NCBI GenBank assembly: GCA_022709585.1
Contig: JAKLIN010000002.1
Coordinates: 1-34,105 of the forward strand
DNA length: 34,105 nt
From: Nanobdellota archaeon
GTDB lineage: Archaea > Nanobdellota > Nanobdellia > Pacearchaeales > GW2011-AR1
Reading direction: 5' to 3'
Part shown: positions 7,455 through 25,263 of the stretch, one piece after another
How positions within the stretch are numbered: the first letter of the stretch is position 1
Layout of the letters: each line of letters starts with the position of its first letter
The notes under the pieces: generated by a model
Database searches by the model: none
Seen by the model: only the letters and a program-made list of their open reading frames with translations
What the model was told of the DNA's origin: nothing
Translations under genes and position numbers: made by a program

Positions 7455-7491
7455 AAAAGAGCAGATTTTATCAATTATCTCCTGCTTTCTA
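7455..7491 (+). repeat. short variant of the same repeat family (lacks the internal 22-nt CGGGGTTTCTGCCTGCAAATTT segment)
   Basis: AAAAAGAGCAGATTTTATCAATTATCTCCTGCTTTC versus AAAAAGAGAGCAAAT...TTTTATCAATTCTCTCGTGCTTCC. 25/28 matches in the TTTTATCAATT-TCTC-TGCTT core. Confidence 0.6.
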
Positions 7492-16108: not shown

Positions 16109-16984
16109 TTAACCTTCAGAATATTTCTCTTCGGAATTCAGATTAAGCCCCTCAATTGGGCTTTTTACTTTTTTGAGCTCTTCTGAAGAAACATGCGCAT
16201 AAAGTTGAGTTGTGCTAAGATTGCTATGCCCTAACAGCTCTTGAATTATTCTTATATCTACTTTATTTTCTAAAAGATGCGTTGCAAAGCTGTGCCTTAA
16301 TGTATGGGGATGAACATCTTTGTTGATTTTTGCTACACGCGTTGCTCTTTTGATTATCTTCTGAATATTTCTATCTGTTAGTTTTCCATCTCTCCCGCTG
16401 AAAAGGTATTCTTGTTTGTTTTGTTTTTGCTTTTCCACTTGCTGCTTTAATTCTTCAATTAAAAAATCAGGTATGTTAAACAGCCGGTCCTTTCTTCCTT
16501 TTGCTTGCCTAGCATATCCAATTTTCTCTGAAAAAGATAAATCCGTTATCTTTAAACTCGTTAACTCTGAAACACGAAAACCGCAAGCATAAAGCATGCT
16601 TACAATCAGTTTACTTTTTTTATTGGTTATTGAATCTATAAGCCTTGTTACTTCTTGTTTAGTCAAAACCGGAGGAATTTTTCTTTCTTTTCTTGGACGT
16701 TTTATTCCTTCAGTTATATCTTCTTTCAAGAGATTAGAATAAGCGTATTTAACTGCAGAAAGAAAAACGATGATTGAGGGTGAGGACATCTCAGAAATCT
16801 TAGAAGCCATGAAGTTTTTTACATCCTGATTCTTAATTTGTTCTGGATTCTTCTTACAAAAATTGATTAACTCGTTGTTTGCTCTAAGATAATTGCGAAT
16901 CGTATGCTCTGAATTTTTTGAAATTTTCAATTCTACTTTTAATTTATCTAAGAATTCTTGTTTGTCCATTAAGGTTATATCCAT
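16109..16984 (-). CDS. tyrosine site-specific recombinase (XerA/XerC/XerD-like)
   Basis: 291 aa. N-terminal SAM-like core-binding domain (TIRNYLRANNELINFC). Catalytic ACGFRVSEL (R), HTLRHSFATHLL (H-x-x-R), LGHSNLSTTQLYAHV (H ... Y). Confidence 0.9.
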   Translation of the reverse strand: MDITLMDKQEFLDKLKVELKISKNSEHTIRNYLRANNELINFCKKNPEQIKNQDVKNFMASKISEMSSPSIIVFLSAVKYAYSNLLKEDITEGIKRPRKERKIPPVLTKQEVTRLIDSITNKKSKLIVSMLYACGFRVSELTSLKITDLSFSEKIGYARQAKGRKDRLFNIPDFLIEELKQQVEKQKQNKQEYLFSGRDGKLTDRNIQKIIKRATRVAKINKDVHPHTLRHSFATHLLENKVDIRIIQELLGHSNLSTTQLYAHVSSEELKKVKSPIEGLNLNSEEKYSEG

Positions 16985-17184
16985 AAAAATCCTCTTTTCT
17001 ATGCTTTGAATTGTACGAACTTTTTATATGTTATGAAATCTCACTCTTTTATGATCTTTTTGTTGTTTTTTTGAAAATTTCAAAAGGCATAACCTTAAAA
17101 ATCGTGGTTTATTGAAAAAGGTAGAATAAGTTAATCTTGTTCTGTAATTAAATAAAACGTAGATTAATCTACAAGGATCGCGAA

Positions 17185-17538
17185 ATGAGTAAGAAACTTT
17201 ATGTAGGAAACTTGAACTTTAGTGTTGATCATCAAAAGCTCAAAGACGCTTTCTCTGAATTCGGGGAAATCGAAGAAGCTGTGATTATTCAAGACAAGTT
17301 CTCTGGAAGATCCAAAGGATTCGGTTTCGTAACCTTCAAAGAAGATGCAAACGCTGACAAAGCAATTGCTGCAATGAATGAAAAAGAATTTGAAGGAAGA
17401 AAGATGACAGTAAACGAAGCTAGACCAATGGAAGATAGACCATCTAGACCCCCAAGAAGAGACTTTGGCGGAAGAGGTGGAAGAGACGGTGGAAGACCAG
17501 GTTTTAACAGAGATAGACCTCCAAGAAGATTTAATTAA
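17185..17538 (+). CDS. RRM-domain RNA-binding protein with RGG/PRR-rich C-terminal tail
   Basis: RNP-2 LYVGNL, RNP-1 KGFGFVTF, then DRPSRPPRRDFGGRGGRDGGRPGFNRDRPPRRFN. Confidence 0.9.
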   Translation: MSKKLYVGNLNFSVDHQKLKDAFSEFGEIEEAVIIQDKFSGRSKGFGFVTFKEDANADKAIAAMNEKEFEGRKMTVNEARPMEDRPSRPPRRDFGGRGGRDGGRPGFNRDRPPRRFN

Positions 17539-17611
17539 ATCTATTAGGAATATCTTTAGCTAAACGCTAAATTTTTTGATTTTTATTTTATATTTTATTT
17601 TGAAAAAAGAA

Positions 17612-17637
17612 GTGTGCACTTAGATAGGCTTAGTGAA
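17612..17637 (+). repeat. solitary GTGCACTTAG-box copy (GTGTGCACTTAGATAGGCTTAGTGAA)
   Basis: Shares GT-TGCACTTAG-N-T-N-RRCTTART with the 3' ends of the two long repeats at 17891-17916 and 19146-19171. Confidence 0.6.
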
Positions 17638-17824
17638 CAGAATTATTCTAGATGAAAATTTTCACAATTTTTGCCTAAATTTTACCTTAAAGAGGTGAGT
17701 TCGCATAATGTACGTTGTACGTACTTTTTTAGTGTTTTTTTCGCTTTTTTAAGGCTTTTTCAGAGATTTTTGTGATTTTTTGATGTTTTTAGTGTATTAT
17801 AGCTCAAAAACAGCAATAATTTTG

Positions 17825-17913
17825 AAAAAGAGAGCAAATCGGGGTTTCTGCCTGCAAATTTTTTTATCAATTCTCTCGTGCTTCCGGCGGGTTGTGCACT
17901 TAGGTTAACTTAG
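17825..17913 (+). repeat. long direct repeat, copy 1 (upstream of the M16 peptidase gene)
   Basis: 17842-17887 is identical over 46 nt to 19097-19142, and 17891-17907 is identical to 19146-19162. About 68/72 matches across 17842-17913 versus 19097-19168. Confidence 0.9.
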
Positions 17914-17970
17914 TTATTAGAACATTTTTTCATCTATATCTTTTTAAATTAATTTTCTTTTTTTATTATA

Positions 17971-19068
17971 ATGATTGTTAATCTTAAGAGTCAAACAGAT
18001 CTTTCTGGATTCTATGTTGTTTACGAGGGAGCTGCAAATCTTGAGGAAAAAGGGCAATATGGGATTTCTCATTTAATTGAACATTTAATGACGACAGATT
18101 TGCTCTCAAAAGGTGAGAAATTAGTCAAATCAGGGGTTGAATTCAATGCAGAAACTTCTCAGAATGAAGTGACTTTTTATTTAACTGGATTGGAAAAAAA
18201 TCTCGCTAGATGGAGAGAACCTCTTTTAAGGTCGTTAAGCAAATTAAATTATTCTGAAGATACATTTCAAACACAAAAAAGTGTTGTTTTAACAGAGTAT
18301 TCTCAAGATTTTTCAGGTTTAGAAACTACTCATTTTTGGAATGTCTCTAGGGATATATTTGATGTATATGGACCCTTGGGATTAAAAAAAGATTTAGAAA
18401 GCCTAACATTAAAACAATGCTTAGATTGCTACTCTTCTCGATTCGCTAAGCCTTCAAAAATAATTAATATTTCAAAAAATTTCGAATATAAAGATAATTC
18501 GATTCAATTTGACACACAAAAAGCTAAGAAAAAGATCGAAAGGGGAGATTATGATGCGCCTTTAGAGATGGCAGATTTCTCTGATGAAATGACTTCGATC
18601 ATCTGCTTTTCGCCGATTATTGAAGAAGATTTTGCGTATGTAGATTTTATTAATAGTTTACTTTCAGATAGTTTAAGTTTTCCTCTTTTTCGAGAGATTA
18701 GAAATAAAGGACTTGCTTACGAGCTCTCTTTGAACCAAAGAAGAATCAACAATCAAGGAATTTCTGATTTAACCGTACCTGTTTCAAAAGAAAATGTATG
18801 GAAAACGATTGGAACGATTCGAAAAGTTCTGAACAATCCAAAAAGGCTCTTTACGGAAAGACGAATAGATGCCGTTAAGTCCTCTTTAAAAGCTCAACAA
18901 GAAAAAGAAGAAATTTTAAGATTTATGTGTGTTGAGGAGTATATTGATCCTCCAGAATGGAATGTTTATTCGATACTTCCAGAAGTTAATTTAGATAGAA
19001 TAAAAGAAGTTTATGATAAATATTTTGATTTTGACGCTTGGCATACTTCTTATTGCCCTTCTGATTAG
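17971..19068 (+). CDS. M16 (pitrilysin/insulinase)-family zinc peptidase, compact form
   Basis: 365 aa. Inverted zinc motif HxxEH in GISHLIEHLM, with the downstream NAETSQNEVTFY segment typical of M16. Confidence 0.75.
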   Translation: MIVNLKSQTDLSGFYVVYEGAANLEEKGQYGISHLIEHLMTTDLLSKGEKLVKSGVEFNAETSQNEVTFYLTGLEKNLARWREPLLRSLSKLNYSEDTFQTQKSVVLTEYSQDFSGLETTHFWNVSRDIFDVYGPLGLKKDLESLTLKQCLDCYSSRFAKPSKIINISKNFEYKDNSIQFDTQKAKKKIERGDYDAPLEMADFSDEMTSIICFSPIIEEDFAYVDFINSLLSDSLSFPLFREIRNKGLAYELSLNQRRINNQGISDLTVPVSKENVWKTIGTIRKVLNNPKRLFTERRIDAVKSSLKAQQEKEEILRFMCVEEYIDPPEWNVYSILPEVNLDRIKEVYDKYFDFDAWHTSYCPSD

Positions 19069-19081
19069 CCACTACTAAAAC

Positions 19082-19170
19082 AAAAAGAGAAAAAGCGGGT
19101 TTCTGCCTGCAAATTTTTTTATCAATTCTCTCGTGCTTCCGGATGGTTGTGCACTTAGGTTAGCTTAATG
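19082..19170 (+). repeat. long direct repeat, copy 2 (downstream of the M16 peptidase gene)
   Basis: See copy 1. Same orientation, 1255 bp from copy 1. Confidence 0.9.
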
Positions 19171-19274
19171 CAAAGCAAAAAAGGTGTGAAAAAGGCATTT
19201 TTAATGTTATTTTTACTAATCATTTTCTTGAAAAATTAAACAAAAGTGTATTCTTATTTTATCGACGGAAAACT

Positions 19275-19403
19275 GGCTGTTTAAAGGGTGTTTAAACAGG
19301 TGTTTATTTTTGCTTTTGGGTGTTTGTGGGTGTTTGCCGCTGTTTAAACAGGCTGTTTGCCCTACTTTTTTGATGTTTTGGCTGTTTAAACAGGTGTTTA
19401 ATA
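19275..19403. repeat. iteron-like array of about 10 G(G/C)TGTTT(A/G) units, including the palindrome CTGTTTAAACAG
   Basis: TGTTT cores at 19278, 19289, 19301, 19321, 19331, 19341, 19354, (19374), 19383 and 19395, mostly 10-13 bp apart. Perfect CTGTTTAAACAG at 19340-19351 and 19382-19393. The 18-mer TGTTTAAACAGGTGTTTA occurs at 19289-19306 and 19383-19400. Confidence 0.85.
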
Positions 19404-19484
19404 ATTTATTTAATGATTTCTACAAGGATTTTTTACAATTTTATTGAAAAATAAAAGCATGCTTACGACGATAATTGCCGACGA

Positions 19485-20141
19485 GTGCAAAACATTTTTA
19501 AACTGTTTATTATAATAACTATTATGTTTTGGTTTTTTAATAGAAAAAAAGAGGCAGAAGACATAAAAAAAGATGTTAAATCTGGTTTTGAATCTGTAAA
19601 AAAAGATATAACTTCTATTAGTGGATGGATAAATTATTTAGATTCTGAGAAAAATATTACAAAAAAAGACATTTTGGATATGAAAGAGGATTTGTCTTCG
19701 ATAAAAAAAGAAATTGAAGGATTAAAAAACGTTGTTTCTTTTATGGGCCAAACCCAAACAAACAGGGTGTTTAAAACACCCGCTCGGGTGTTTGACAAAC
19801 AAACAGTTGTTTTGCCTGTTCAAACAGCTGTTCAAACAGCTGTTCAAACACCTAATTTAGATAGATTTTCAACAACTGAAAGAGCAATCTTGTGGGTATT
19901 GCTAAATTCAGAATTAAAGTTAAGTTATGATGATCTCTCTGCAGTATTGGGGAAAGAGAGATCTACGATTCGGGGCCAGATTAACTCAATTAAACAAAAA
20001 GGAGAGATAATTCAAGAAGTTGTTGAGGAAAATGGCAAAAAGAGAGTGTTTATACCTGAAGAAATCAAGGAAAAACTACTCAAAAAGGCAAAAGTGAGAG
20101 TTAGCGGAACTAAAAAAGCTAAGAAAAATGAAAAAAGCTAA
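19485..20141 (+). CDS. membrane-anchored coiled-coil / Q,T,V-repeat linker / winged-helix DNA-binding protein (paralog 1)
   Basis: N-terminal hydrophobic helix (FKLFIIITIMFWFF), heptad-like KKDVKSGFESVKKDI...LSSIKKEIEGLKNVV, linker QTQTNRVFKTPARVFDKQTVVLPVQTAVQTAVQT, and C-terminal wHTH (TERAILWVLLN..LSYDDLSAVLGKERSTIRGQINSIKQKGEI). The track start is GTG; an ATG at 19524 is an alternative. Confidence 0.7.
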   Translation: MQNIFKLFIIITIMFWFFNRKKEAEDIKKDVKSGFESVKKDITSISGWINYLDSEKNITKKDILDMKEDLSSIKKEIEGLKNVVSFMGQTQTNRVFKTPARVFDKQTVVLPVQTAVQTAVQTPNLDRFSTTERAILWVLLNSELKLSYDDLSAVLGKERSTIRGQINSIKQKGEIIQEVVEENGKKRVFIPEEIKEKLLKKAKVRVSGTKKAKKNEKS

Positions 20142-20527
20142 GAAAAATGAAACCTTAAAAAAGAAAAAGTGAGGGGTAAAGGATCAAAATTCAAAAAGCA
20201 GTAAAAATGAGAGTAACGATTCGTGAGAAAATGCAAAAATACATGAAAAAAATGAGTGTTTTGTAGTGGTTAAAAAGCATCAGAGATTCACGAAGAATTG
20301 CGAGAAAGAAAGAGAAAAAGGCATAGAAATAGTTCATCGGTTAACCGATTAGATTATTTGGAAGAATGAAATTTAATAGTTTATCGACGGAAATATTTTT
20401 AAAAAAAGTTAAGTAATTTTTGAAAAATGAGAGGAATTGATGCCCTTTTGGAAAAAATAAAAGTCATAAATGAATTTTTATGGCTCAAGAAAAATTAAAA
20501 GAGCGACGTGGAATAATTTAACTGAAA

Positions 20528-21274
20528 TTATAGATCTCTAAGTTGAATAATCGCATCTAAAGACGCAACTTTTTTAAGATTCTGGGAAACAGAGAGTTTG
20601 ATCTGTTTATTATTTATTTTTTCTTTTTGAATTGGAACTCCTTTCTTGATTAATTTTCCGACGTAGTCTCTTACCGAACTCTCGCTGAGACCTAATCTTT
20701 GAGAAAGTGTCTTGTAATCCGAGAATCCTTGCTCTTCGTCATATTGATAAATTGCGGAAAACACCAAAAATTCTTGCTCTGTAAGCTCCTTGAATTTAAG
20801 TCTAATTTCTTTTTTTATACTATCCAGAGAGCTAAGAATTTCCAAAGCTTTATCCATGTGAGTTAAAGAGTTAGATTCTGATCCTAAATGCTTCCAAGAG
20901 CCTTCAATTTGGCTGTTTTGTGTCTGTTGGTTTGTCTGTTGGTTTGTCTGTCTGTCTGTTGGAACCCCTCCATTTCCAGTGGAGAAGCTCATATTTTGAG
21001 CTTTAGAAGGCTTAAAGGGGTAATTATCTGTTGGATTATGTGTTGGAACTGTTGGAACTTCTTGCCTGTCTGTTGGCTTTAAATAGGCGTCTGTTGGACT
21101 CATTTGAAGCTCTTCAACAAGCTTAGAATCATTTAAGGCTGAAGGGGTTTCTTGCTTTTTCGAAACTAAAAGGGACTTTAATTCATTTAATTCTAGTTTT
21201 ATCCAATCAAGTTCTTCCTTAAGAGAAATCATATCCTGTTTAACCCTGTCAAATGCCTCTTTGATTGGTTCCAT
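20528..21274 (-). CDS. coiled-coil / P,T,Q-repeat linker / winged-helix DNA-binding protein (paralog 2)
   Basis: N-terminus EAFDRVKQDMISLKEELDWIKLELNELKSLL, linker with PTD(R/A/N) and QTNQQTNQQTQN repeats, and C-terminal wHTH (TEQEFLVFSAIYQ..FSDYKTLSQRLGLSESSVRDYVGKLIKKGV). Aligns by eye with the C-terminus of paralog 1. Confidence 0.7.
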   Translation of the reverse strand: MEPIKEAFDRVKQDMISLKEELDWIKLELNELKSLLVSKKQETPSALNDSKLVEELQMSPTDAYLKPTDRQEVPTVPTHNPTDNYPFKPSKAQNMSFSTGNGGVPTDRQTNQQTNQQTQNSQIEGSWKHLGSESNSLTHMDKALEILSSLDSIKKEIRLKFKELTEQEFLVFSAIYQYDEEQGFSDYKTLSQRLGLSESSVRDYVGKLIKKGVPIQKEKINNKQIKLSVSQNLKKVASLDAIIQLRDL

Positions 21275-21360: not shown

Positions 21361-21633
21361 TTACTTGCCTTGAATCTTTTTGTATGCTTCATACGATTTA
21401 TTGGACAGTTTCCACCTAGCCCTTTTTTTGTAAGTTGTTCCTTGAGGATTCTTCTTTATTTGGTCAACTAACCCTTTTTTACTTAAATCTAATAAAAGCT
21501 TTTTGACAAATTCTTCATCTCTTGCAATTTCTTTAGAAATTTGAGAAATAAATAAAGAACGAGGGCTGTTCTCAAAAAGGAGAGAAAGTATTTGCTCGGA
21601 AATTTTATTCTTCTTTTCTTGAGAAATTCGCAT
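21361..21633 (-). CDS. small winged-helix transcriptional regulator
   Basis: 90 aa. ILSLLFENSPRSLFISQISKEIARDEEFVKKLLLDLSKKGLV ... wing (YKKRARWKLS). Same strand as paralog 2 and upstream of it. Confidence 0.6.
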   Translation of the reverse strand: MRISQEKKNKISEQILSLLFENSPRSLFISQISKEIARDEEFVKKLLLDLSKKGLVDQIKKNPQGTTYKKRARWKLSNKSYEAYKKIQGK

Positions 21634-21718: not shown

Positions 21719-22768
21719 ATGGAATCAACTTTAGAATTCAGCGCTGGCAATAAACAAACAGCACGTGAATTCATAAAAAATTTAAAAGGAACAGACAACC
21801 TCGCAATTGTAAGCCATAACGATTTAGACGGTCTTGCTTCTGCAAAAGTTTTAGAAAGGGTTAGCTCTCCTAAACTTATTGAACTTGTTTCTTATGATAG
21901 AGTAAACAATTCTTTGGCAGATTACCTTAAGAGTAAAAAAATAAACAAGATTATCTTCTCGGACCTATCCTTAGACTTTCCAGGAAGCTTAAACTCTTTT
22001 GAAACGTTTGCCGATTCCTTGATTATAGACCACCATCAGTTCAAACAAAATCTGGAAACAGAAAAAACCAAATTTGTGAATGCCCAAGGATATTGTGCTT
22101 CTTACCTTTGCTATTCCTTATTTTCTGAGCAATCAGATTTAAAAAGTTTAGACTGGCTAGTTGCGCTGGCTTCTTTGGCAGACTGGCTTTATTTGAAGAA
22201 CACTTCTTGGCTTGGACAGATTTATGAAAAATATGGTGAAAAATTAGATTTAAAAGAAATTCAAAAGGGAAGATTTTGGGAAAGTGTTCTCACTCTTTCA
22301 GATTTTTTGATTTACTTTAAAGATTCTCCAAAAAAAGCTTATGATTTAATAGACTCAAAAAATTTTGATTTAAAGCAAACAGAACCTTATGTTTTGAAGG
22401 TTAGAAAAGATCTTGAGAAGAATTTAGAACTGTTTCAAGAACAAAAAGAGATTATTCCCGGAGGATTCTTTTATGAAATGCAATCAAGTTACGATTTAAA
22501 TTCGCGATTTGCTTCTTTAGTTAGTGGAAAAAATCCAAGCCAAGTTTATATTATCTCTACAAAAAATAAAAATCTTTACAGGATTTCTGCTAGACGAAGT
22601 GATGGAAAACAAAATATGTCTGAGTTAGTAAAATACCTTACCGAAGATTTAACTCTAATCAATGCAGGCGGACACCTCGCAGCAGCAGGATGCAATGTTT
22701 TAGATATAGACTATGCAAAGTTCAAACAGAAATTAAAAGATATTCCAGAACAACTCTTTAAGGTTTAA
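21719..22768 (+). CDS. DHH/DHHA1-family phosphoesterase (NrnA/RecJ-like)
   Basis: Motifs AIVSHNDLDGLASA (DxD/D.DG), IIDHHQ (DHH) and AGGHLAAAGC (DHHA1 GGGH-like). Confidence 0.8.
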   Translation: MESTLEFSAGNKQTAREFIKNLKGTDNLAIVSHNDLDGLASAKVLERVSSPKLIELVSYDRVNNSLADYLKSKKINKIIFSDLSLDFPGSLNSFETFADSLIIDHHQFKQNLETEKTKFVNAQGYCASYLCYSLFSEQSDLKSLDWLVALASLADWLYLKNTSWLGQIYEKYGEKLDLKEIQKGRFWESVLTLSDFLIYFKDSPKKAYDLIDSKNFDLKQTEPYVLKVRKDLEKNLELFQEQKEIIPGGFFYEMQSSYDLNSRFASLVSGKNPSQVYIISTKNKNLYRISARRSDGKQNMSELVKYLTEDLTLINAGGHLAAAGCNVLDIDYAKFKQKLKDIPEQLFKV

Positions 22769-22799: not shown

Positions 22800-23219
22800 T
22801 TATTTCTTTTCTTTGCTCTCTTTTCTGATTGCAGGTAAAGGTATATGCAAAGGAAGATTCATTTCATCTTCTAATTCCATTGCTTTTAAGTTCGCTTTTC
22901 TCAAAATAGCATTGAAGACAAAGATTTTGAAATCTTCTTCGATTTTCTTTTCTTTCCATTGTTTTAATATCTCTCGAGATTGCCTTTGATCTAAGGAAAC
23001 GAGCAAATCCCCTTTAAACTCAATTTTAACATAATTTGGGTTGTAATTAATTATGTAAGAAAACTTTACTCCTAAGAAATCGTCTTTTGTCTTAAATAAG
23101 TCTGCTTTAACTTGAGAAATTTCAGATAAGTCTATTTTAGTTTCCACTTTAAGATTCTCTGTTTTATCTGAAAGCTTTTCTATGCTTATCTTTTTGAAAG
23201 TTAATCCGACTATTTTCAT
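22800..23219 (-). CDS. hypothetical protein (possible SecB-like fold)
   Basis: 139 aa. A beta-rich N-part and helical C-part ending NLPLHIPLP are loosely reminiscent of SecB-type chaperones. No firm motif. Confidence 0.3.
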   Translation of the reverse strand: MKIVGLTFKKISIEKLSDKTENLKVETKIDLSEISQVKADLFKTKDDFLGVKFSYIINYNPNYVKIEFKGDLLVSLDQRQSREILKQWKEKKIEEDFKIFVFNAILRKANLKAMELEDEMNLPLHIPLPAIRKESKEKK

Positions 23220-23263: not shown

Positions 23264-23524
23264 TTAAACTAAGTCTTCTTCAGAAACGATCACAAAGTCC
23301 CCTATTGCAATAATAGAGTTATAAGGGATAAGTATGTCATTGGTGTGAGTTCTTTCAAGGTTAAGGTTCTTAACGTAAGCTGTGGAGTCTCTAACAACGA
23401 GGTTGATTAATTCTCCAGACTTAGTTTCAAAAGTAATATCCTTTACAGCACCTAGTCTTTTTCCCTCTTTTGTGACAATCATCTTGCCCAAAATCGAATT
23501 GAATGGGTTTTTTTCTTGTTGCAT
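23264..23524 (-). CDS. PRC-barrel domain protein
   Basis: ILGKMIVTKEGKRLGAVKDITFETKSGELINLVV ... ILIPYNSIIAIGDFVIV is the PRC-barrel pattern. Start set at the ATG at 23524 (MQQEKNP...); the track start at 23569 is a TTG codon. Confidence 0.75.
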   Translation of the reverse strand: MQQEKNPFNSILGKMIVTKEGKRLGAVKDITFETKSGELINLVVRDSTAYVKNLNLERTHTNDILIPYNSIIAIGDFVIVSEEDLV

Positions 23525-23743
23525 GATTGTTTTAAAGGGGATTGATATATAAATTTTTCTATAACTCAAGATAACAATTCAACGAGCTCTTTAAAACAGT
23601 AATGAAAGGGAAGAATAAGGAAACCAGTTAAGAAAAGAAGATAAAAGAGACTAAAAGAAGAATGATTCAAATAAAAAGGCTCGATTAAAAATGTATTAAA
23701 ACAAACTTAAAAGGTCTAAAAGGCTGTTAATTTTAGCTTTTCT

Positions 23744-23771
23744 CCCTGACCCCTATATTTCCAGTAGAAAC
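23744..23771 (-). promoter_or_regulatory. origin recognition box (ORB) 1
   Basis: The reverse complement reads GTTTCTACTGGAAATATAGGGGTCAGGG: the dyad TTCTACTGGAA plus a G-string, like the archaeal ORB consensus TTCCAGTGGAAA...GGGG. Confidence 0.75.
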
Positions 23772-23877
23772 ATTTAAAAAAGAAAAATTGAATTTTATTT
23801 TTTTATTTTTTATTTATAAAATTATATATTATATATTATATATATTATAATAATATAATAAGATAAAGTTAATCGGT

Positions 23878-23898
23878 TTTCCATAAGAAATCTTGGTG
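23878..23898 (+). promoter_or_regulatory. degenerate mini-ORB
   Basis: TTTCCATAAGAAATCTTGGTG aligns with ORB2 TTTCCACTGGAAATGAACCTGTGGG. Confidence 0.4.
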
Positions 23899-23973
23899 TC
23901 TTTCTTATTCAGTAGTTATAATCCTTTATATAATATTTTAAGTTTTTTCGTTGGAAAAATTTATAATAAACTC

Positions 23974-24000
23974 TTTCCACTGGAAATGAACCTGTGGGAG
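23974..24000 (+). promoter_or_regulatory. origin recognition box (ORB) 2
   Basis: TTTCCACTGGAAATGAACCTGTGGGAG: the dyad TTCCACTGGAA plus a G-rich tail. Opposite orientation to ORB1. Confidence 0.75.
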
Positions 24001-24033: not shown

Positions 24034-25263
24034 ATGGGAGTAATTTTAGATGAAATTTTTGAAGCTTTTGATAAGAATAAAATCTTCAAAAATAAAGGAG
24101 TTTTAGAATCAAATTATCAACCAGAACAGATTCTTCATAGAGATGAACACATCAAACAGATTGCTTCTATACTCGCCCCGGTGCTTAGAGGAGAAAAATG
24201 CAGTAATTTGTTTCTTTATGGAAAAACAGGAACAGGAAAAACAATTTCTATTCAATATGTAAAAGATGAAATGCTTAAAAGAGTTAAAAAAGAAGCAGAT
24301 TTCGCCCTTAAAATAGAATATCTTAATTGTAAATTAAAAAAGGTTTCAGACACAGATTACAGAATTTTAGCGGAGCTTATTAAGAAACTTGGAGGGCAGG
24401 TTCCAGATACAGGGCTTCCTACAGAAAGGGTTTACAATAAATTCATTAATTTAATTGATTCAGAAAAACAAATTATTGTTTTAATCTTAGATGAAATCGA
24501 CCAAGTTGTTAAGAAAATTTCCAGCGATTTCTTGTATAACCTCACAAGATTAAATAACGAACTTTCTCAGTCCAAGCTTTGCCTTGTTGGAATTAGCAAT
24601 GATTTAACTTTTTTAGATGAAATTGATCCTCGAGTAAGAAGCTCCCTTTCAGAAGAAGAAATTGTTTTTTTACCTTATAATGCAATTCAGCTTCAAGAAA
24701 TTTTAAGAAAAAGAGCTGCAGAAGCGTTTAAAGAAGGCATTCTTCAAGAGGGGGTTATCGAAAAGTGTGCAGCCTTTTCAGCAAAGGGTTATGGGGATGC
24801 GAGAAGAGCCTTAGATCTGTTAAGAGTTGCAGGGGAATTAGCAGAAAGAGATAAATCCGATAAAATTACTTTCAAGCATATTGATGAAGCAAATAAAAAA
24901 TTAGAAAGTGATAAAGTTTTAGAGATTATTCAATCAGAGCCCAAGCCTTTCCATTATGTTCTTAATTCGATTATTCAATTAACAGAACAAAGAAGCAAAG
25001 AGGGAAAATCTTCTCACGAGCCTATTTTTACAGGAGATATTTACAATCATTATGCAGAGTTCTGCAGTAGAAACAAAATCGAAGTTTTAACTCAAAGAAG
25101 AGTTTCAGATATTATTCAAGAATTTGATATGTTTGGAATAATAAATGTTAGAGTTGTTTCAAAGGGTAGGGGGGGAAGAATGAGAGAAATTAATTTAGTT
25201 TTAGCTCAAGAGAGTATTGTCAAAGTTAAAGAGATTATTAAGAATTCAGTTGATTTTAGATAA
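24034..25263 (+). CDS. cdc6: Orc1/Cdc6 replication initiator
   Basis: 409 aa. Walker A LYGKTGTGKT, Walker B LILDEID, sensor and arginine region GDARRALDLLR, C-terminal winged helix. Confidence 0.95.
   Translation: MGVILDEIFEAFDKNKIFKNKGVLESNYQPEQILHRDEHIKQIASILAPVLRGEKCSNLFLYGKTGTGKTISIQYVKDEMLKRVKKEADFALKIEYLNCKLKKVSDTDYRILAELIKKLGGQVPDTGLPTERVYNKFINLIDSEKQIIVLILDEIDQVVKKISSDFLYNLTRLNNELSQSKLCLVGISNDLTFLDEIDPRVRSSLSEEEIVFLPYNAIQLQEILRKRAAEAFKEGILQEGVIEKCAAFSAKGYGDARRALDLLRVAGELAERDKSDKITFKHIDEANKKLESDKVLEIIQSEPKPFHYVLNSIIQLTEQRSKEGKSSHEPIFTGDIYNHYAEFCSRNKIEVLTQRRVSDIIQEFDMFGIINVRVVSKGRGGRMREINLVLAQESIVKVKEIIKNSVDFR

What the first reader, a model, noticed from the sequence alone, without database searches (positions are those of the whole stretch)
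19275..19403. Iteron-like array: about 10 helically phased TGTTT-core repeats built around the palindrome CTGTTTAAACAG
Within 130 bp the unit G(G/C)TGTTT(A/G) recurs about 10 times at mostly 10-13 bp spacing. There are two perfect 12-bp palindromes CTGTTTAAACAG (19340, 19382), one GTGTTTAAACAG (19288), and an exact 18-mer TGTTTAAACAGGTGTTTA repeated 94 bp apart. An AT-rich stretch (19404-19460) and then a gene for a membrane-anchored wHTH protein follow. This iterons / AT-rich / DNA-binding-gene layout resembles plasmid-type replicons and centromere-like partition sites. It lies only about 4.4 kb from the chromosomal oriC. Possible roles are an autoregulatory operator array, a centromere or membrane-tethering site for the origin region, or a relic or secondary replicon origin.
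Basis: partly seen in the sequence, partly recalled or inferred. Interest (0 to 1): 0.7.

Follow-up and report, generated by a model that had tools for sequence, protein, structure and literature searches.

The report
Conserved binding-site array, partly inside its gene
A real, evolutionarily conserved cluster of short DNA-binding sites sits in front of, and is also written into the coding sequence of, a DNA-binding protein gene beside the replication origin of tiny uncultured archaea. It most likely lets that protein control its own gene and is not a second replication origin.

Summary
The array is real. Nine exact GSTGTTTR sites, all on one strand, lie in 19276-19400, against 3.7 expected in the whole 34-kb window. 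It is conserved: 70 of 77 species-level Nanoarchaeota (Woese-/Pacearchaeota) genomes carry at least 4 strict sites 100-300 bp upstream of the same gene, against 0.16 expected. The commonest spacings are 10 and 13 bp.

The downstream gene starts at ATG 19524 and encodes 205 aa: coiled coil, disordered linker and wHTH. The "membrane anchor" is its translated BRE/TATA promoter.

The same motif is embedded in the linker-coding DNA (19760-19852). Synonymous sites there are frozen (Ala GCT 99%, Gly GGT 99%). In a distant clade of the family both the linker-coded motif and the upstream motif change to CGTTCA/TGAACG, read in all three codon phases. Selection therefore acts on nucleotides, and one reader probably recognises both clusters.

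The gene belongs to a conserved oriC-proximal cluster. The canonical ORB origin and cdc6 lie 4.4 kb away.

Best reading: a cooperative operator array for the adjacent wHTH protein, giving autoregulation, with extra sites at xerA in relatives. A centromere- or tether-like role and an RNA-level role remain open. A plasmid-type iteron origin is not supported.

The parts
19256..19273 (+). ATTTTATCGACGGAAAAC, left-boundary copy of a second motif (TCGWCGR) that marks this locus
   Evidence: TCGWCGR occurs only 3 times in the window, all at this locus. A copy at about -260 is present in 46 of 81 related loci. It is conserved between the window and L001.
19276..19400 (+). The TGTTT array: 9 exact GSTGTTTR half-sites plus 1 weak one, all in one orientation, including three TGTTTAAACA palindromes
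   Evidence: Conserved at -300 to -100 from the ATG in 70 of 77 species genomes with at least 4 strict sites (median 7; background 0.16 per 290 bp).
19339..19359 (+). Core module GCTGTTTAAACAGGCTGTTTG, the most conserved part of the array
   Evidence: A strict regular expression finds it in 51 of 81 loci, at a median of 168 bp before the ATG. Information content is 1.5-2 bits per position.
19366..19371 (+). Conserved T6 run 5-6 bp after the core. In relatives it is followed by an inverted CAAACAGSTGTTT; in the window by GGCTGTTTAAACAGGTGTTTA (19380-19400).
   Evidence: Anchored stack of 51 loci, 1.1-1.6 bits per position. Its role (bendable spacer or transcription stop) is unresolved.
19478..19485 (+). 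CCGACGAG, promoter-proximal copy of the TCGWCGR motif (a variant, ACGACGA, lies at 19466-19472)
   Evidence: 56 copies in 48 loci at -90 to -30, consensus tTTatCGtCGaaaAaaa just upstream of the BRE/TATA.
19488..19502 (+). Archaeal promoter of the downstream gene: purine-rich BRE (CAAAACA) and TATA box (TTTTTAAA). The mRNA is probably leaderless.
   Evidence: TTT(T/A)AA starts 27-30 nt before the ATG in 71 of 79 loci; consensus aaaAa.aAAA.aTTTTtAAa. Identical in L001.
19524..20141 (+). Gene 'g205', 205 aa: conserved hydrophobic N-terminal tip (MFWFF), coiled coil (aa 2-77), disordered linker (aa 78-109), wHTH (aa 117-169 and wing), basic tail. It is the candidate reader of the array.
   Evidence: Over 2,378 homologues, with the start at MFW. 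AF2 model. Weak HTH_11 and Sta1/Lrs14-like matches below cut-off. Only generic HTH fold matches.
19760..19852 (+). Intragenic cluster of the same motif, encoding NRVFKTPARVFDKQTVVLPVQTAVQTAVQTP. It includes GGGTGTTTAAAACACCC and three 12-bp CTGTTCAAACAG units.
   Evidence: Synonymous sites are frozen across 80 species: Ala GCT 99% (background 35%), Gly GGT 99% (23-33%), Thr ACA 94% (57%), Gln CAA 97% (70%), V82 GTG 98% (13%). The motif occurs in two codon phases. The region is predicted disordered.
20384..20390 (+). Third TCGACGG motif, in the convergent intergenic region. In relatives the equivalent copy lies inside the neighbouring wHTH gene.
20528..21274 (-). Convergent gene 'w248' (coiled coil, linker, wHTH), syntenic partner of g205 in 76 of 81 loci
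   Evidence: Its linker carries an ORB-like element at 20961-20986 with frozen codons.
21361..21633 (-). Third wHTH gene 'w90' of the conserved cluster
   Evidence: Present in 72 of 81 loci.
23742..24000 (.). Canonical oriC: ORBs at 23742-23771, 23876-23901 and 23972-24000 flank an AT-rich unwinding region. cdc6/orc1 follows at 24034-25263.
   Evidence: cdc6 is followed by PolD DP1 and DP2.

Best explanation
The array is a conserved, multi-site operator for a sequence-specific DNA-binding protein. That protein is most probably the coiled-coil/winged-helix protein encoded immediately downstream (g205, 19524-20141). The half-site is G(G/C)TGTT(T/C). It occurs as direct repeats 10 bp apart and as TGTTTAAACA palindromes. 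Inferred mechanism: coiled-coil-linked dimers or oligomers bind cooperatively to the upstream cluster (-250 to -125 in the window). They also bind a second cluster embedded in the gene's own linker-coding DNA (+237 to +329). The two clusters bracket the leaderless BRE/TATA promoter, so the protein could set its own expression by looping, filament formation or a transcription roadblock. In relatives, single palindromic modules of the same motif sit at the start of the nearby xerA-like recombinase gene, so the factor also has a small regulon. Shown here: the array exists and is far beyond chance. It is positionally conserved across about 80 species. The intragenic copy is under nucleotide-level selection. 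The upstream and intragenic motifs change together in a distant clade whose recognition helix also differs. Inferred, not shown: that g205 is the binder (rather than w248 or w90), the direction of regulation, and the looping or filament geometry.
For: Enrichment in the window: 21 hits against 3.67 expected, 14 of them at this locus. Conservation: about 5 forward and 1.7 reverse strict sites per locus at -300 to -100, against 0.01-0.03 per 50 bp elsewhere. At least 4 sites occur in 70 of 77 loci, against a background of 0.16 per 290 bp. The core module lies a median of 168 bp before the ATG. The upstream neighbour gene varies, so the array travels with g205. The phylogenetic footprint against L001 shows array and promoter conserved and spacers diverged. 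Spacing peaks at 10 and 13 bp. A conserved BRE/TATA lies 27 nt before the ATG. The intragenic motif has frozen synonymous codons in a region AF2 predicts to be disordered. The motif occurs in two codon phases in this clade. In the distant clade CGTTCA occurs in all three phases, and the palindrome CGTTCATGAACG is read both as SFMNV and as IVHER. Covariation: the distant clade (recognition helix VTIRRHINDIKK instead of STIRGQINxIKQK) has CGTTCA/TGAACG in the linker. Seven of its 30 loci also have small clusters of that motif at -150 to -50, and the motif is almost absent elsewhere within +/-2.5 kb, including in w248. Half-sites vary independently (TGTCCAAACA and TGTTTGGACA both occur), which fits protein contacts and not base pairing. 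Single palindromic modules lie 6-89 bp before, or at the 5' end of, xerA-like genes in more than 10 relatives. The g205 DNA-binding domain is a generic wHTH with weak Sta1/Lrs14-like similarity.
Against: No binding data exist. The array lies upstream of the BRE/TATA and does not overlap it, which is atypical for simple archaeal repression. A second locus-specific motif (TCGWCGR) and, in some relatives, an ORB-like element share the region, so the regulatory logic involves more than one factor. In the distant clade only 7 of 30 loci have upstream copies. The intragenic region would also fold strongly as RNA, z = -5. I could not scan whole genomes, so uniqueness or regulon size is known only for the 34-kb window and +/-4 kb of 80 loci.
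Confidence: 0.55

Rival explanations
1. Origin-proximal architectural, centromere-like or tethering site. The protein coats the roughly 600-bp region (array plus own gene) to mark, condense or tether the origin region, by analogy with ParB/parS, RacA/ram or Noc. The conserved hydrophobic N-terminal tip (MFWFF followed by basic residues) might contact the membrane or a partner.
For: The locus belongs to a cluster that keeps its place next to oriC: g205, w248, w90, p139, PRC-barrel protein, oriC, cdc6. cdc6 is seen in 58 of 81 loci at a median of +3.2 kb, and that count is limited by the flank fetched. The clustering of many sites upstream of and inside the binder's own gene resembles known centromeres (own knowledge: a parS inside B. 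subtilis spo0J; parC in front of parMR; tubC in front of tubR). The N-terminal M-x-F-W-x-F-x-K motif is invariant even in the distant clade. The array is unique within the 34-kb window.
Against: No ParA, SegA, ParM or TubZ-type NTPase is in the window or in the conserved cluster. Single sites at xerA promoters look like transcription-factor operators. Membrane binding by a five-residue hydrophobic tip is speculation. The predicted transmembrane helix was an artefact.
Confidence: 0.18
2. RNA-level element. The palindromic units make the linker-coding part of the mRNA strongly structured. This could pause translation, set mRNA stability or provide a protein-binding site. An RNA made from the upstream array could pair with that region, since both are built from the same self-complementary unit.
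For: The mRNA segment 19755-19860 folds with z = -5.1, and none of 200 shuffles folded as well. Upstream and intragenic motifs covary, which RNA-RNA complementarity would also predict. A conserved T-run follows the core. A promoter-like element with GTGCACTWAGG lies upstream of the array in most loci.
Against: The upstream array itself is not notably structured as RNA, z = -1.15. Several T4-5 runs lie between the upstream promoter-like element and the array. There is no Rfam match. Half-site variants are one-sided and not compensatory. Zero-spacer palindromes, 10-bp phasing of direct repeats and copies in xerA promoter DNA are hallmarks of double-stranded DNA recognition.
Confidence: 0.12
3. 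Accessory or architectural array for the nearby XerA-like tyrosine recombinase. A wHTH protein polymerises on phased direct repeats and directs or restrains recombination while also repressing transcription, as the Cox, Apl, Xis and RdfS recombination directionality factors do.
For: A xerA-like gene lies within about 2 kb upstream in 56 of 81 loci, and motif modules sit at its start. Arrays of short direct repeats at about 10-bp phasing bound by oligomerising wHTH proteins are typical of such factors (abstract of PMC11963761; Cox and Apl from own knowledge). In L001 the module is a perfect 28-bp palindrome with formal 11-6-11 geometry.
Against: Archaeal dif is a single site per chromosome, lies in the terminus region and is not next to xerA (PMC2958812). 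Here there are many copies 4.4 kb from oriC. The window has no module at xerA, and RRM and M16 genes lie between xerA and the array. g205 is larger than known directionality factors and has a coiled coil. There are no signs of a mobile element.
Confidence: 0.07
4. Secondary or relic replication origin with iterons bound by a wHTH initiator.
For: The layout is a repeat array, an AT-rich stretch and a DNA-binding gene. w248 matches DnaD_N and HTH_36. About 12 relatives have an ORB-like element between the array and the g205 promoter, and w248 carries an embedded ORB-like element.
Against: The window's array has no ORB (best score -20). The unit size and spacing are unlike iterons. The AT-rich spacer is not conserved. 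No Rep or Orc gene is adjacent. A complete canonical oriC with cdc6 and PolD lies 4.4 kb away. Composition profiles show nothing special here.
Confidence: 0.04
5. Low-complexity chance cluster, or a decaying duplicate of the linker-coding segment with no function.
For: The genome is AT-rich. The upstream motif resembles the linker-coding DNA. ATGTTTTGG occurs both at 19373 and at the gene start (family D7).
Against: None of 100 shuffles reached the observed count. Position, orientation and core sequence are conserved across about 80 species with 63-91% protein identity. The upstream copies are perfect palindromes containing stop codons, not degraded coding sequence.
Confidence: 0.02

Closest known systems
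Type II and type III plasmid centromeres: parC/ParR (R1) and tubC/TubR (pBtoxis) (own knowledge)
   Same: An array of about 7-10 short repeats with 10-12-bp periodicity lies immediately upstream of, and flanks the promoter of, the gene for the small DNA-binding adaptor. The adaptor both autoregulates and builds a higher-order complex. TubR is a wHTH protein that binds 12-bp repeats.
   Different: No partner NTPase (ParM, TubZ or ParA) is present. The context is chromosomal, conserved and next to oriC, not a plasmid. The binder candidate has a long coiled coil. A second site cluster lies inside the coding sequence.
Cox (P2), Apl (186), lambda Xis and RdfS: oligomerising wHTH repressors and recombination directionality factors (PMC11963761; otherwise own knowledge)
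   Same: Short motifs occur as direct repeats phased at about 10-11 bp and are bound head-to-tail by a wHTH protein. A tyrosine recombinase gene lies nearby and carries sites at its start in relatives.
   Different: There is no mobile element or att site. Palindromes are mixed with the direct repeats. The protein is twice as large and has a coiled-coil domain. The locus is conserved across a phylum-level clade.
Archaeal autoregulating wHTH factors (Lrs14/Sta1 family, Ss-LrpB) (own knowledge; family match)
   Same: An archaeal wHTH protein with several regularly spaced sites in its own control region. The g205 HTH shows weak Sta1/Lrs14-like similarity.
   Different: The score is 23.9 bits against a family cut-off of 80, so it is not a member. 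The architecture (N-terminal coiled coil plus linker) differs. There are 9-10 sites rather than 2-3. The sites lie upstream of the BRE/TATA and inside the CDS, and do not overlap the TATA box.
ParB/parS, with a parS inside B. subtilis spo0J; RacA/ram; Noc/NBS (own knowledge)
   Same: Origin-proximal binding sites for an HTH protein whose gene lies near oriC, including a site inside the protein's own coding sequence. RacA combines an HTH with a coiled coil. Noc has an N-terminal membrane-targeting peptide.
   Different: No sequence or fold relationship was detected. No ParA is present. The sites here are concentrated at one locus as far as could be examined.
ucm/UBP at Sulfolobus oriC1 (PMC12141716)
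   Same: A precedent for a non-ORB motif and a non-initiator DNA-binding protein associated with an archaeal origin region.
   Different: The ucm is a single 11-bp element between ORBs inside the origin. UBP is a small beta-rich nucleoid protein and not a wHTH. The array here is 4.4 kb from the DUE and tied to a gene promoter.
Plasmid iterons with a Rep initiator
   Same: Direct repeats lie next to a gene for a winged-helix protein.
   Different: Iterons are 17-22 bp long and spaced about two helical turns apart. They need a Rep initiator and an adjacent DUE. None of these was found here.

Membership tests
Plasmid-type iteron origin | Direct repeats of about 17-22 bp, usually about 22 bp apart | tested here: not met
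   The core unit is 7-8 bp. Spacing modes are 10 and 13 bp. TRF periods are 10-12 bp.
Plasmid-type iteron origin | Adjacent gene for a Rep-type initiator | tested here: not met
   Pfam and NCBIfam give only generic HTH matches for g205. The hits for w248 (DnaD_N, HTH_36) and w90 are wHTH-level matches only. Fold search finds only HTH regulators.
Plasmid-type iteron origin | Origin activity with an adjacent conserved DUE | not testable with these tools
   This needs marker-frequency or initiation mapping. The AT-rich spacer 19404-19460 is not conserved even in the closest relative.
Plasmid-type iteron origin | Mobile-element or extrachromosomal context | tested here: not met
   Chromosomal synteny is conserved in 81 loci. 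The core module has 0 matches in viral contigs.
Archaeal oriC (ORB/Orc1) | ORB or mini-ORB dyads (TTTCCAnnnGAAAT and flank) flanking an AT-rich DUE next to cdc6 | tested here: not met
   The best ORB-model score in -260 to -40 of the window is -20.5, against 25.6 for the 10th percentile of true ORBs. The true ORBs lie at 23742-24000.
Partition centromere (parC/ParR, tubC/TubR, parS/ParB, AspA, SegB) | Cluster of short repeats upstream of the adaptor's own gene | tested here: met
Partition centromere (parC/ParR, tubC/TubR, parS/ParB, AspA, SegB) | Partner NTPase (ParA, SegA, ParM or TubZ) encoded in the same operon or cluster | tested here: not met
   None among the window ORFs that were scanned or in the conserved gene clusters.
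Partition centromere (parC/ParR, tubC/TubR, parS/ParB, AspA, SegB) | The adaptor binds the repeats and supports segregation | not testable with these tools
   This needs EMSA or footprinting and a segregation or localisation assay.
Autoregulatory operator array of a wHTH transcription factor | Sites at a conserved position relative to the factor's own promoter | tested here: met
   The core lies a median of 168 bp before the ATG. TATA lies at -27. The array follows g205 whatever the upstream gene is.
Autoregulatory operator array of a wHTH transcription factor | The motif co-varies with the factor's DNA-binding domain across clades | tested here: met
   The near clade has STGTTY with helix STIRGQINxIKQK. 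The distant clade has CGTTCA/TGAACG with helix VTIRRHINDIKK, both in the linker DNA and, in 7 of 30 loci, upstream. Caveat: w248 and w90 diverge in parallel.
Autoregulatory operator array of a wHTH transcription factor | Additional operators at other promoters (a regulon) | tested here: inconclusive
   Modules occur at xerA-like gene starts in more than 10 relatives but not in the window. Whole genomes could not be scanned.
Autoregulatory operator array of a wHTH transcription factor | Direct binding and an effect on transcription | not testable with these tools
   This needs EMSA or DAP-seq and in vitro transcription or a reporter.
Lrs14/Sta1 protein family | Score above the family's curated cut-off | tested here: not met
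   Sta1 scores 23.9 bits against a cut-off of 80. Lrs14 scores 17.2 against 90.
dif site of XerA | A single 11-6-11 inverted repeat per chromosome, in the terminus region and not next to xerA | tested here: not met
   There are many copies within 600 bp, 4.4 kb from oriC. The criteria are from PMC2958812. Only the L001 module fits 11-6-11 formally.
Structured non-coding RNA | Match to a curated RNA family, or a stable fold with compensatory changes | tested here: not met
   No Rfam match at the gathering threshold or up to E = 5. The array folds with z = -1.15. Half-site variants are one-sided.
Cox/Apl/Xis/RdfS-type directionality-factor arrays | Direct repeats phased at about 10-11 bp | tested here: met
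   10-bp spacing is the commonest (105 of about 420 intervals).
Cox/Apl/Xis/RdfS-type directionality-factor arrays | Small stand-alone wHTH protein next to an integrase and att site of a mobile element | tested here: not met
   g205 has a 75-residue coiled coil. The context is chromosomal and conserved. A xerA-like gene is nearby in 56 of 81 loci, but no att site or mobile element is evident.

The most novel reading that the evidence does not exclude
The gene carries its own binding-site array inside the DNA that encodes its disordered linker. On this reading the 'invariant' VQT-repeat peptide is largely a by-product of cis-element selection. The protein assembles over the whole -250 to +330 region into an origin-proximal nucleoprotein complex. 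That complex would serve as a centromere-like mark or membrane/partner tether for the origin region in DPANN archaea, which have no recognised chromosome-segregation system.
Probability: 0.15. Interest if true: 0.85.

Novelty: new variant of a known kind. Interest (0 to 1): 0.64.

Why it matters
Nanoarchaeota and other DPANN archaea are almost all uncultured, and almost nothing is known about their gene regulation or chromosome biology. This work yields three things.

- **A factor-and-motif pairing from sequence alone.** The data link a clade-specific DNA-binding protein family to a cognate motif and a precise site map in a conserved origin-proximal gene cluster. The pairing can be tested directly with recombinant protein and synthetic DNA.
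- **Cis-elements inside coding DNA.** The binding motif is written into a disordered linker's coding sequence. It appears in two codon phases in this clade and in all three in a distant clade, with frozen synonymous sites, and it changes in step with the upstream sites. Apparent peptide conservation in linkers may therefore reflect selection on DNA. This bears on how conserved 'motifs' in uncharacterised proteins are interpreted.
- **A practical marker.** The array and its gene mark the oriC neighbourhood in fragmented metagenome bins.

Tried and rejected
- **RNA families:** Rfam at gathering thresholds for the whole window and at E up to 5 for 16950-20600 gave only tRNAs, 5S rRNA and one chance snoRNA hit.
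- **Structure:** the AF2 model of g205 has mean pLDDT 59.7. Its PDB fold search gave only generic HTH domains with E above 0.06, and a PDB profile search gave nothing significant.
- **Family assignment:** no Pfam or NCBIfam match for g205 reached its cut-off.
- **Paralogy of g205 and w248:** only weak coiled-coil similarity, E = 0.008.
- **Mobile elements:** a viral-contig scan for the core module found 0 hits.
- **ORB model:** a position-weight scan showed that the window's array is not an ORB, and that the ORB-like element upstream of g205 exists in only about 12 relatives.
- **dif hypothesis:** rejected on copy number and location.
all three wHTH proteins are conserved, and all stay syntenic in the distant clade, so this did not discriminate between them.
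- **Codon variants:** use of GTC in the VQT repeats does not track the upstream TGTCC variants. This rests on inspection, not on a formal test.
- **Promoter and terminator scan:** the sigma-70 promoter scan is irrelevant for an archaeon.
- **Literature:** searches found no description of this family or motif.
- **Not possible here:** whole-genome motif scans.
Full report
**Organism and setting.** The window has about 31% G+C. It carries a canonical archaeal origin. ORB elements at 23742-23771, 23876-23901 and 23972-24000 flank an AT-rich stretch. They are followed by cdc6/orc1 (24034-25263) and the two PolD subunits. The closest relatives of its genes are labelled Woesearchaeota, Pacearchaeota or Nanoarchaeota.

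**The observation.** GSTGTTTR occurs nine times in 19276-19400, always on the + strand, and a tenth degenerate site lies at 19373. The whole window has 21 hits against 3.67 expected, and none of 100 shuffles reached that number. The 10-mer TGTTTAAACA occurs exactly only at 19289, 19341 and 19383. The 18-mer repeat 94 bp apart is exact.

**The downstream gene.** The database protein is 205 aa and starts at ATG 19524 (MFWFFNRKK...). Homologues are 198-211 aa. In 71 of 79 related loci a TTT(T/A)AA box preceded by a purine-rich BRE starts 27-30 nt before this ATG. That is the geometry of a leaderless archaeal promoter. AF2 predicts one long helix (aa 2-77), a disordered stretch (aa 78-109) and an HTH (aa 117-169). 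Fold and profile searches return only generic HTH regulators, with a weak Sta1/Lrs14-like match far below cut-off. The family is lineage-restricted: 328 representative clusters at E of 0.001 or better among 1.84 billion.

**Conservation of the array.** I fetched 80 loci from distinct species genomes, with 63-91% protein identity.
- The strict 7-mer G[GC]TGTTT and its complement occur about 6.7 times per locus between -300 and -100 from the ATG. Elsewhere they occur 0.01-0.03 times per 50 bp.
- 70 of 77 loci have at least 4 sites there (median 7). The background is 0.16 per 290 bp over 534 kb.
- The anchored consensus is G.TGTTTA.gGc-TGTTTAAACAGsCTGTTT-N7-TTTTTT, followed by an inverted (C)AAACAsC. 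The core starts a median of 168 bp before the ATG.
- Spacings between same-strand sites peak at 10 bp (105 cases) and 13 bp (71 cases).
- The gene upstream of the array varies: a small membrane protein, a xerA-like gene or others. The array therefore belongs to the downstream gene.
- Against the closest relative, the array and the promoter are conserved islands while the spacers have diverged.

**The motif inside the coding sequence.** Residues 82-112 (RVFKTP..VF.KQT.V..VQT.VQT.VQTPNL) are nearly invariant although they are predicted to be disordered.
- Their synonymous sites are frozen across 80 species: Ala GCT 99% (35% elsewhere), Gly GGT 99% (23-33%), Thr ACA 94% (57%), Gln CAA 97% (70%), Val82 GTG 98% (13%), and never GTA in the repeats.
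- The DNA spells the upstream motif: GGTGTTTAAAACACC, AAACAGSTGTTTAT and three copies of GSTGTTCAAACAG. In that frame the C in place of T avoids a TAA stop codon.
- The palindromic unit occurs in two codon phases, read as VFKT and xVQT.

**Covariation.** A profile search reached relatives with 22-27% identity whose recognition helix differs (VTIRRHINDIKK.GF instead of STIRGQIN.IKQK). I fetched 42 such loci and analysed 30 of them.
- Their linker peptides are unrelated to VQT: ERSIVHERS and QSFMNVQS. Both are translations of one DNA motif, TCGTTCATGAACGTTCAATCG.
- CGTTCA occurs in all three phases (61, 50 and 65 times). The palindrome CGTTCATGAACG is read as SFMNV 23 times and as IVHER 10 times.
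- Seven of the 30 loci have small clusters of that same motif at -150 to -50. It is otherwise almost absent within +/-2.5 kb, including in the neighbouring wHTH gene.
- Upstream and intragenic motifs therefore change together with the protein clade, and what is selected is the nucleotide sequence. This is the strongest computational argument that one reader recognises both clusters.

**Context.** Downstream synteny is strongly conserved: g205 (+), w248 (-) in 76 of 81 loci, w90 (-) in 72, a 139-aa protein in 70, a PRC-barrel protein in 68, then oriC and cdc6 (58 loci, limited by flank length; median +3.2 kb). A xerA-like recombinase lies upstream in 56 loci. The window has insertions: RRM and M16 genes upstream and a RecJ-like DHH gene downstream. 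Outside the g205 region, perfect modules (AAACAGCTGTTTAAACAGCTGTTT and variants) in these 8.6-kb loci are almost all at the xerA-like operon. Some lie 6-89 bp before the recombinase start or at its 5' end; others lie inside the adjacent HAD-like gene. This looks like a transcription-factor regulon. The window itself lacks that xerA module.

**Weighing the mechanisms.** Several features point to recognition of double-stranded DNA by an oligomerising protein. The palindromes have zero spacer. The direct repeats are phased at 10 bp. Half-sites vary independently, with TGTCCAAACA and TGTTTGGACA both seen. Copies lie in promoter DNA of another gene. The upstream array lacks notable RNA folding, z = -1.15.
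- **Main model.** Two clusters bracket a leaderless promoter, and the encoded protein has a coiled coil and a wHTH. This suggests cooperative autoregulation by looping, filament formation or a roadblock. I give it 0.55.
- **Architectural or centromere-like role at the origin (0.18).** It is favoured by the conserved oriC-proximal position and the invariant N-terminal FWxF tip. It is weakened by the absence of any partition NTPase.
- **RNA-level role (0.12).** It is kept alive by the strong predicted structure of the linker-coding mRNA, z = -5, and by the conserved T-run.
- **Recombination-accessory role with XerA (0.07).** dif itself is excluded by copy number and position.
- **Second origin (0.04).** This has little support. 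The array has no ORB, no initiator gene is adjacent, the spacing is not iteron-like, and a complete origin is next door.

**What remains unexplained.** The locus holds at least two further conserved motif systems. TCGWCGR occurs at four fixed positions, two of them inside coding sequences with frozen rare codons (TCG 93% and 88% against 7% background). An ORB-like element is embedded in the w248 linker, with Ser codon TCC in 48 of 48 loci. The control region is therefore read by several factors, possibly including Orc1. Assigning TGTTT to g205 rather than to w248 or w90 needs an experiment.

Noticed in passing
window 17827-17912 and 19082-19167 (partial copies at 17613-17642 and 7466-7487); L001-L080 between -1800 and -200 from the g205 start: An 86-nt repeat (91% identical) ends in GTKCACTWAGGTTAnCTTWGT and follows a terminator-like hairpin with a T7 run and a TATA-like AAATTTTTTTATCAAT. 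The GTGCAC element occurs 121 times in 81 loci, 119 of them on the g205 strand, and always upstream of g205. There is no Rfam match and the function is unknown. It may be a small transcription unit or an upstream control element.
   Followed up: partly
window 20961-20986 (-), inside the w248 CDS (20528-21274): An ORB-like element, TTCTCCACTGGAAATGGAGGGGTTCC, is embedded in the linker-coding DNA (peptide FSTGNGGV). In relatives the codons are frozen (Ser TCC in 48 of 48; GGG GTT CCA invariant). This points to a possible Orc1/Cdc6 binding site inside a coding sequence about 1.5-2.8 kb from the DUE.
   Followed up: partly
window 19262-19268, 19478-19484 and 20384-20390; related loci at about -260, -50, +170 and +800 to +1000: A second locus-specific motif, TCGWCGR (TTTTATCGWCGRWAAA), occurs only three times in 34 kb, all at this locus. 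In relatives two of its four fixed positions lie inside coding sequences: LSSIK of g205 (TCG codons 93% and 88% against 7% background) and KGIPVEK of w248. The reader of this motif is unknown.
   Followed up: partly
L006, L011, L035, L037, L046, L056, L063, L065, L073, L074 at about -150 to -110: About 12 relatives carry an ORB-like element, TTTTCCAnnrGAAAynnrGGGGCTTCGACACA, between the TGTTT array and the g205 promoter. Others have TTCCAGCACAT repeats there. The window has no equivalent.
   Followed up: partly
L001:678, L007:1052, L014:785, L020:1185, L036:538, L066:1329, L071:998 and others: Single perfect modules of the TGTTT palindrome lie 6-89 bp before the start, or at the 5' end, of the xerA-like recombinase gene, and also inside the adjacent HAD-like gene. 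The one in L001 is a 28-bp perfect palindrome, CCAAACAGCTGTTTAAACAGCTGTTTGG. The window's xerA promoter (16985-17184) lacks it.
   Followed up: yes
window 20921-20959 (-): The w248 linker contains a (GACA)n/(AACA)n tetranucleotide run encoding DRQT and NQQT repeats, and seven CCAACAGAC ('PTD') units. In some relatives (L015, L038) it reads (CTGTTTGT)4 on the g205 strand.
   Followed up: partly
window 20091-20102 (g205 aa 190-193) and 20154-20189: The codons for K-V-R-V near the 3' end of g205 are frozen (AAA GTG AGA GTT; GTG 100% against 13% background). A similar AAAAGTGAGRG recurs just after the stop codon. This may be another embedded element.
   Followed up: no
window 20112-20152: A perfect 19-bp tandem duplication (AAAAAAGCTAAGAAAAATG, 2.2 copies) spans the end of the g205 coding sequence and its stop codon.
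   Followed up: no
window 17185-17538: An RRM_1 RNA-binding protein with an RGG-rich tail is encoded in an archaeal genome. It is present upstream of the array in only a few relatives (7 loci).
   Followed up: no
window 21719-22768: A RecJ/GAN-like DHH-DHHA1 gene is inserted into the otherwise conserved wHTH/p139/PRC/oriC cluster. Most relatives lack it at this position.
   Followed up: no
window 22800-23219 (-) and 23264-23569 (-): A 139-aa protein with no family match and a highly conserved PRC-barrel protein (median 78% pairwise identity) sit directly beside oriC in 68-70 of 81 loci.
   Followed up: no
L046 and L074 (record titles): Two of the 80 loci come from bins labelled Patescibacteria and Bacillota, although they carry this archaeal gene cluster. 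This is probably bin contamination or mislabelling.
   Followed up: no
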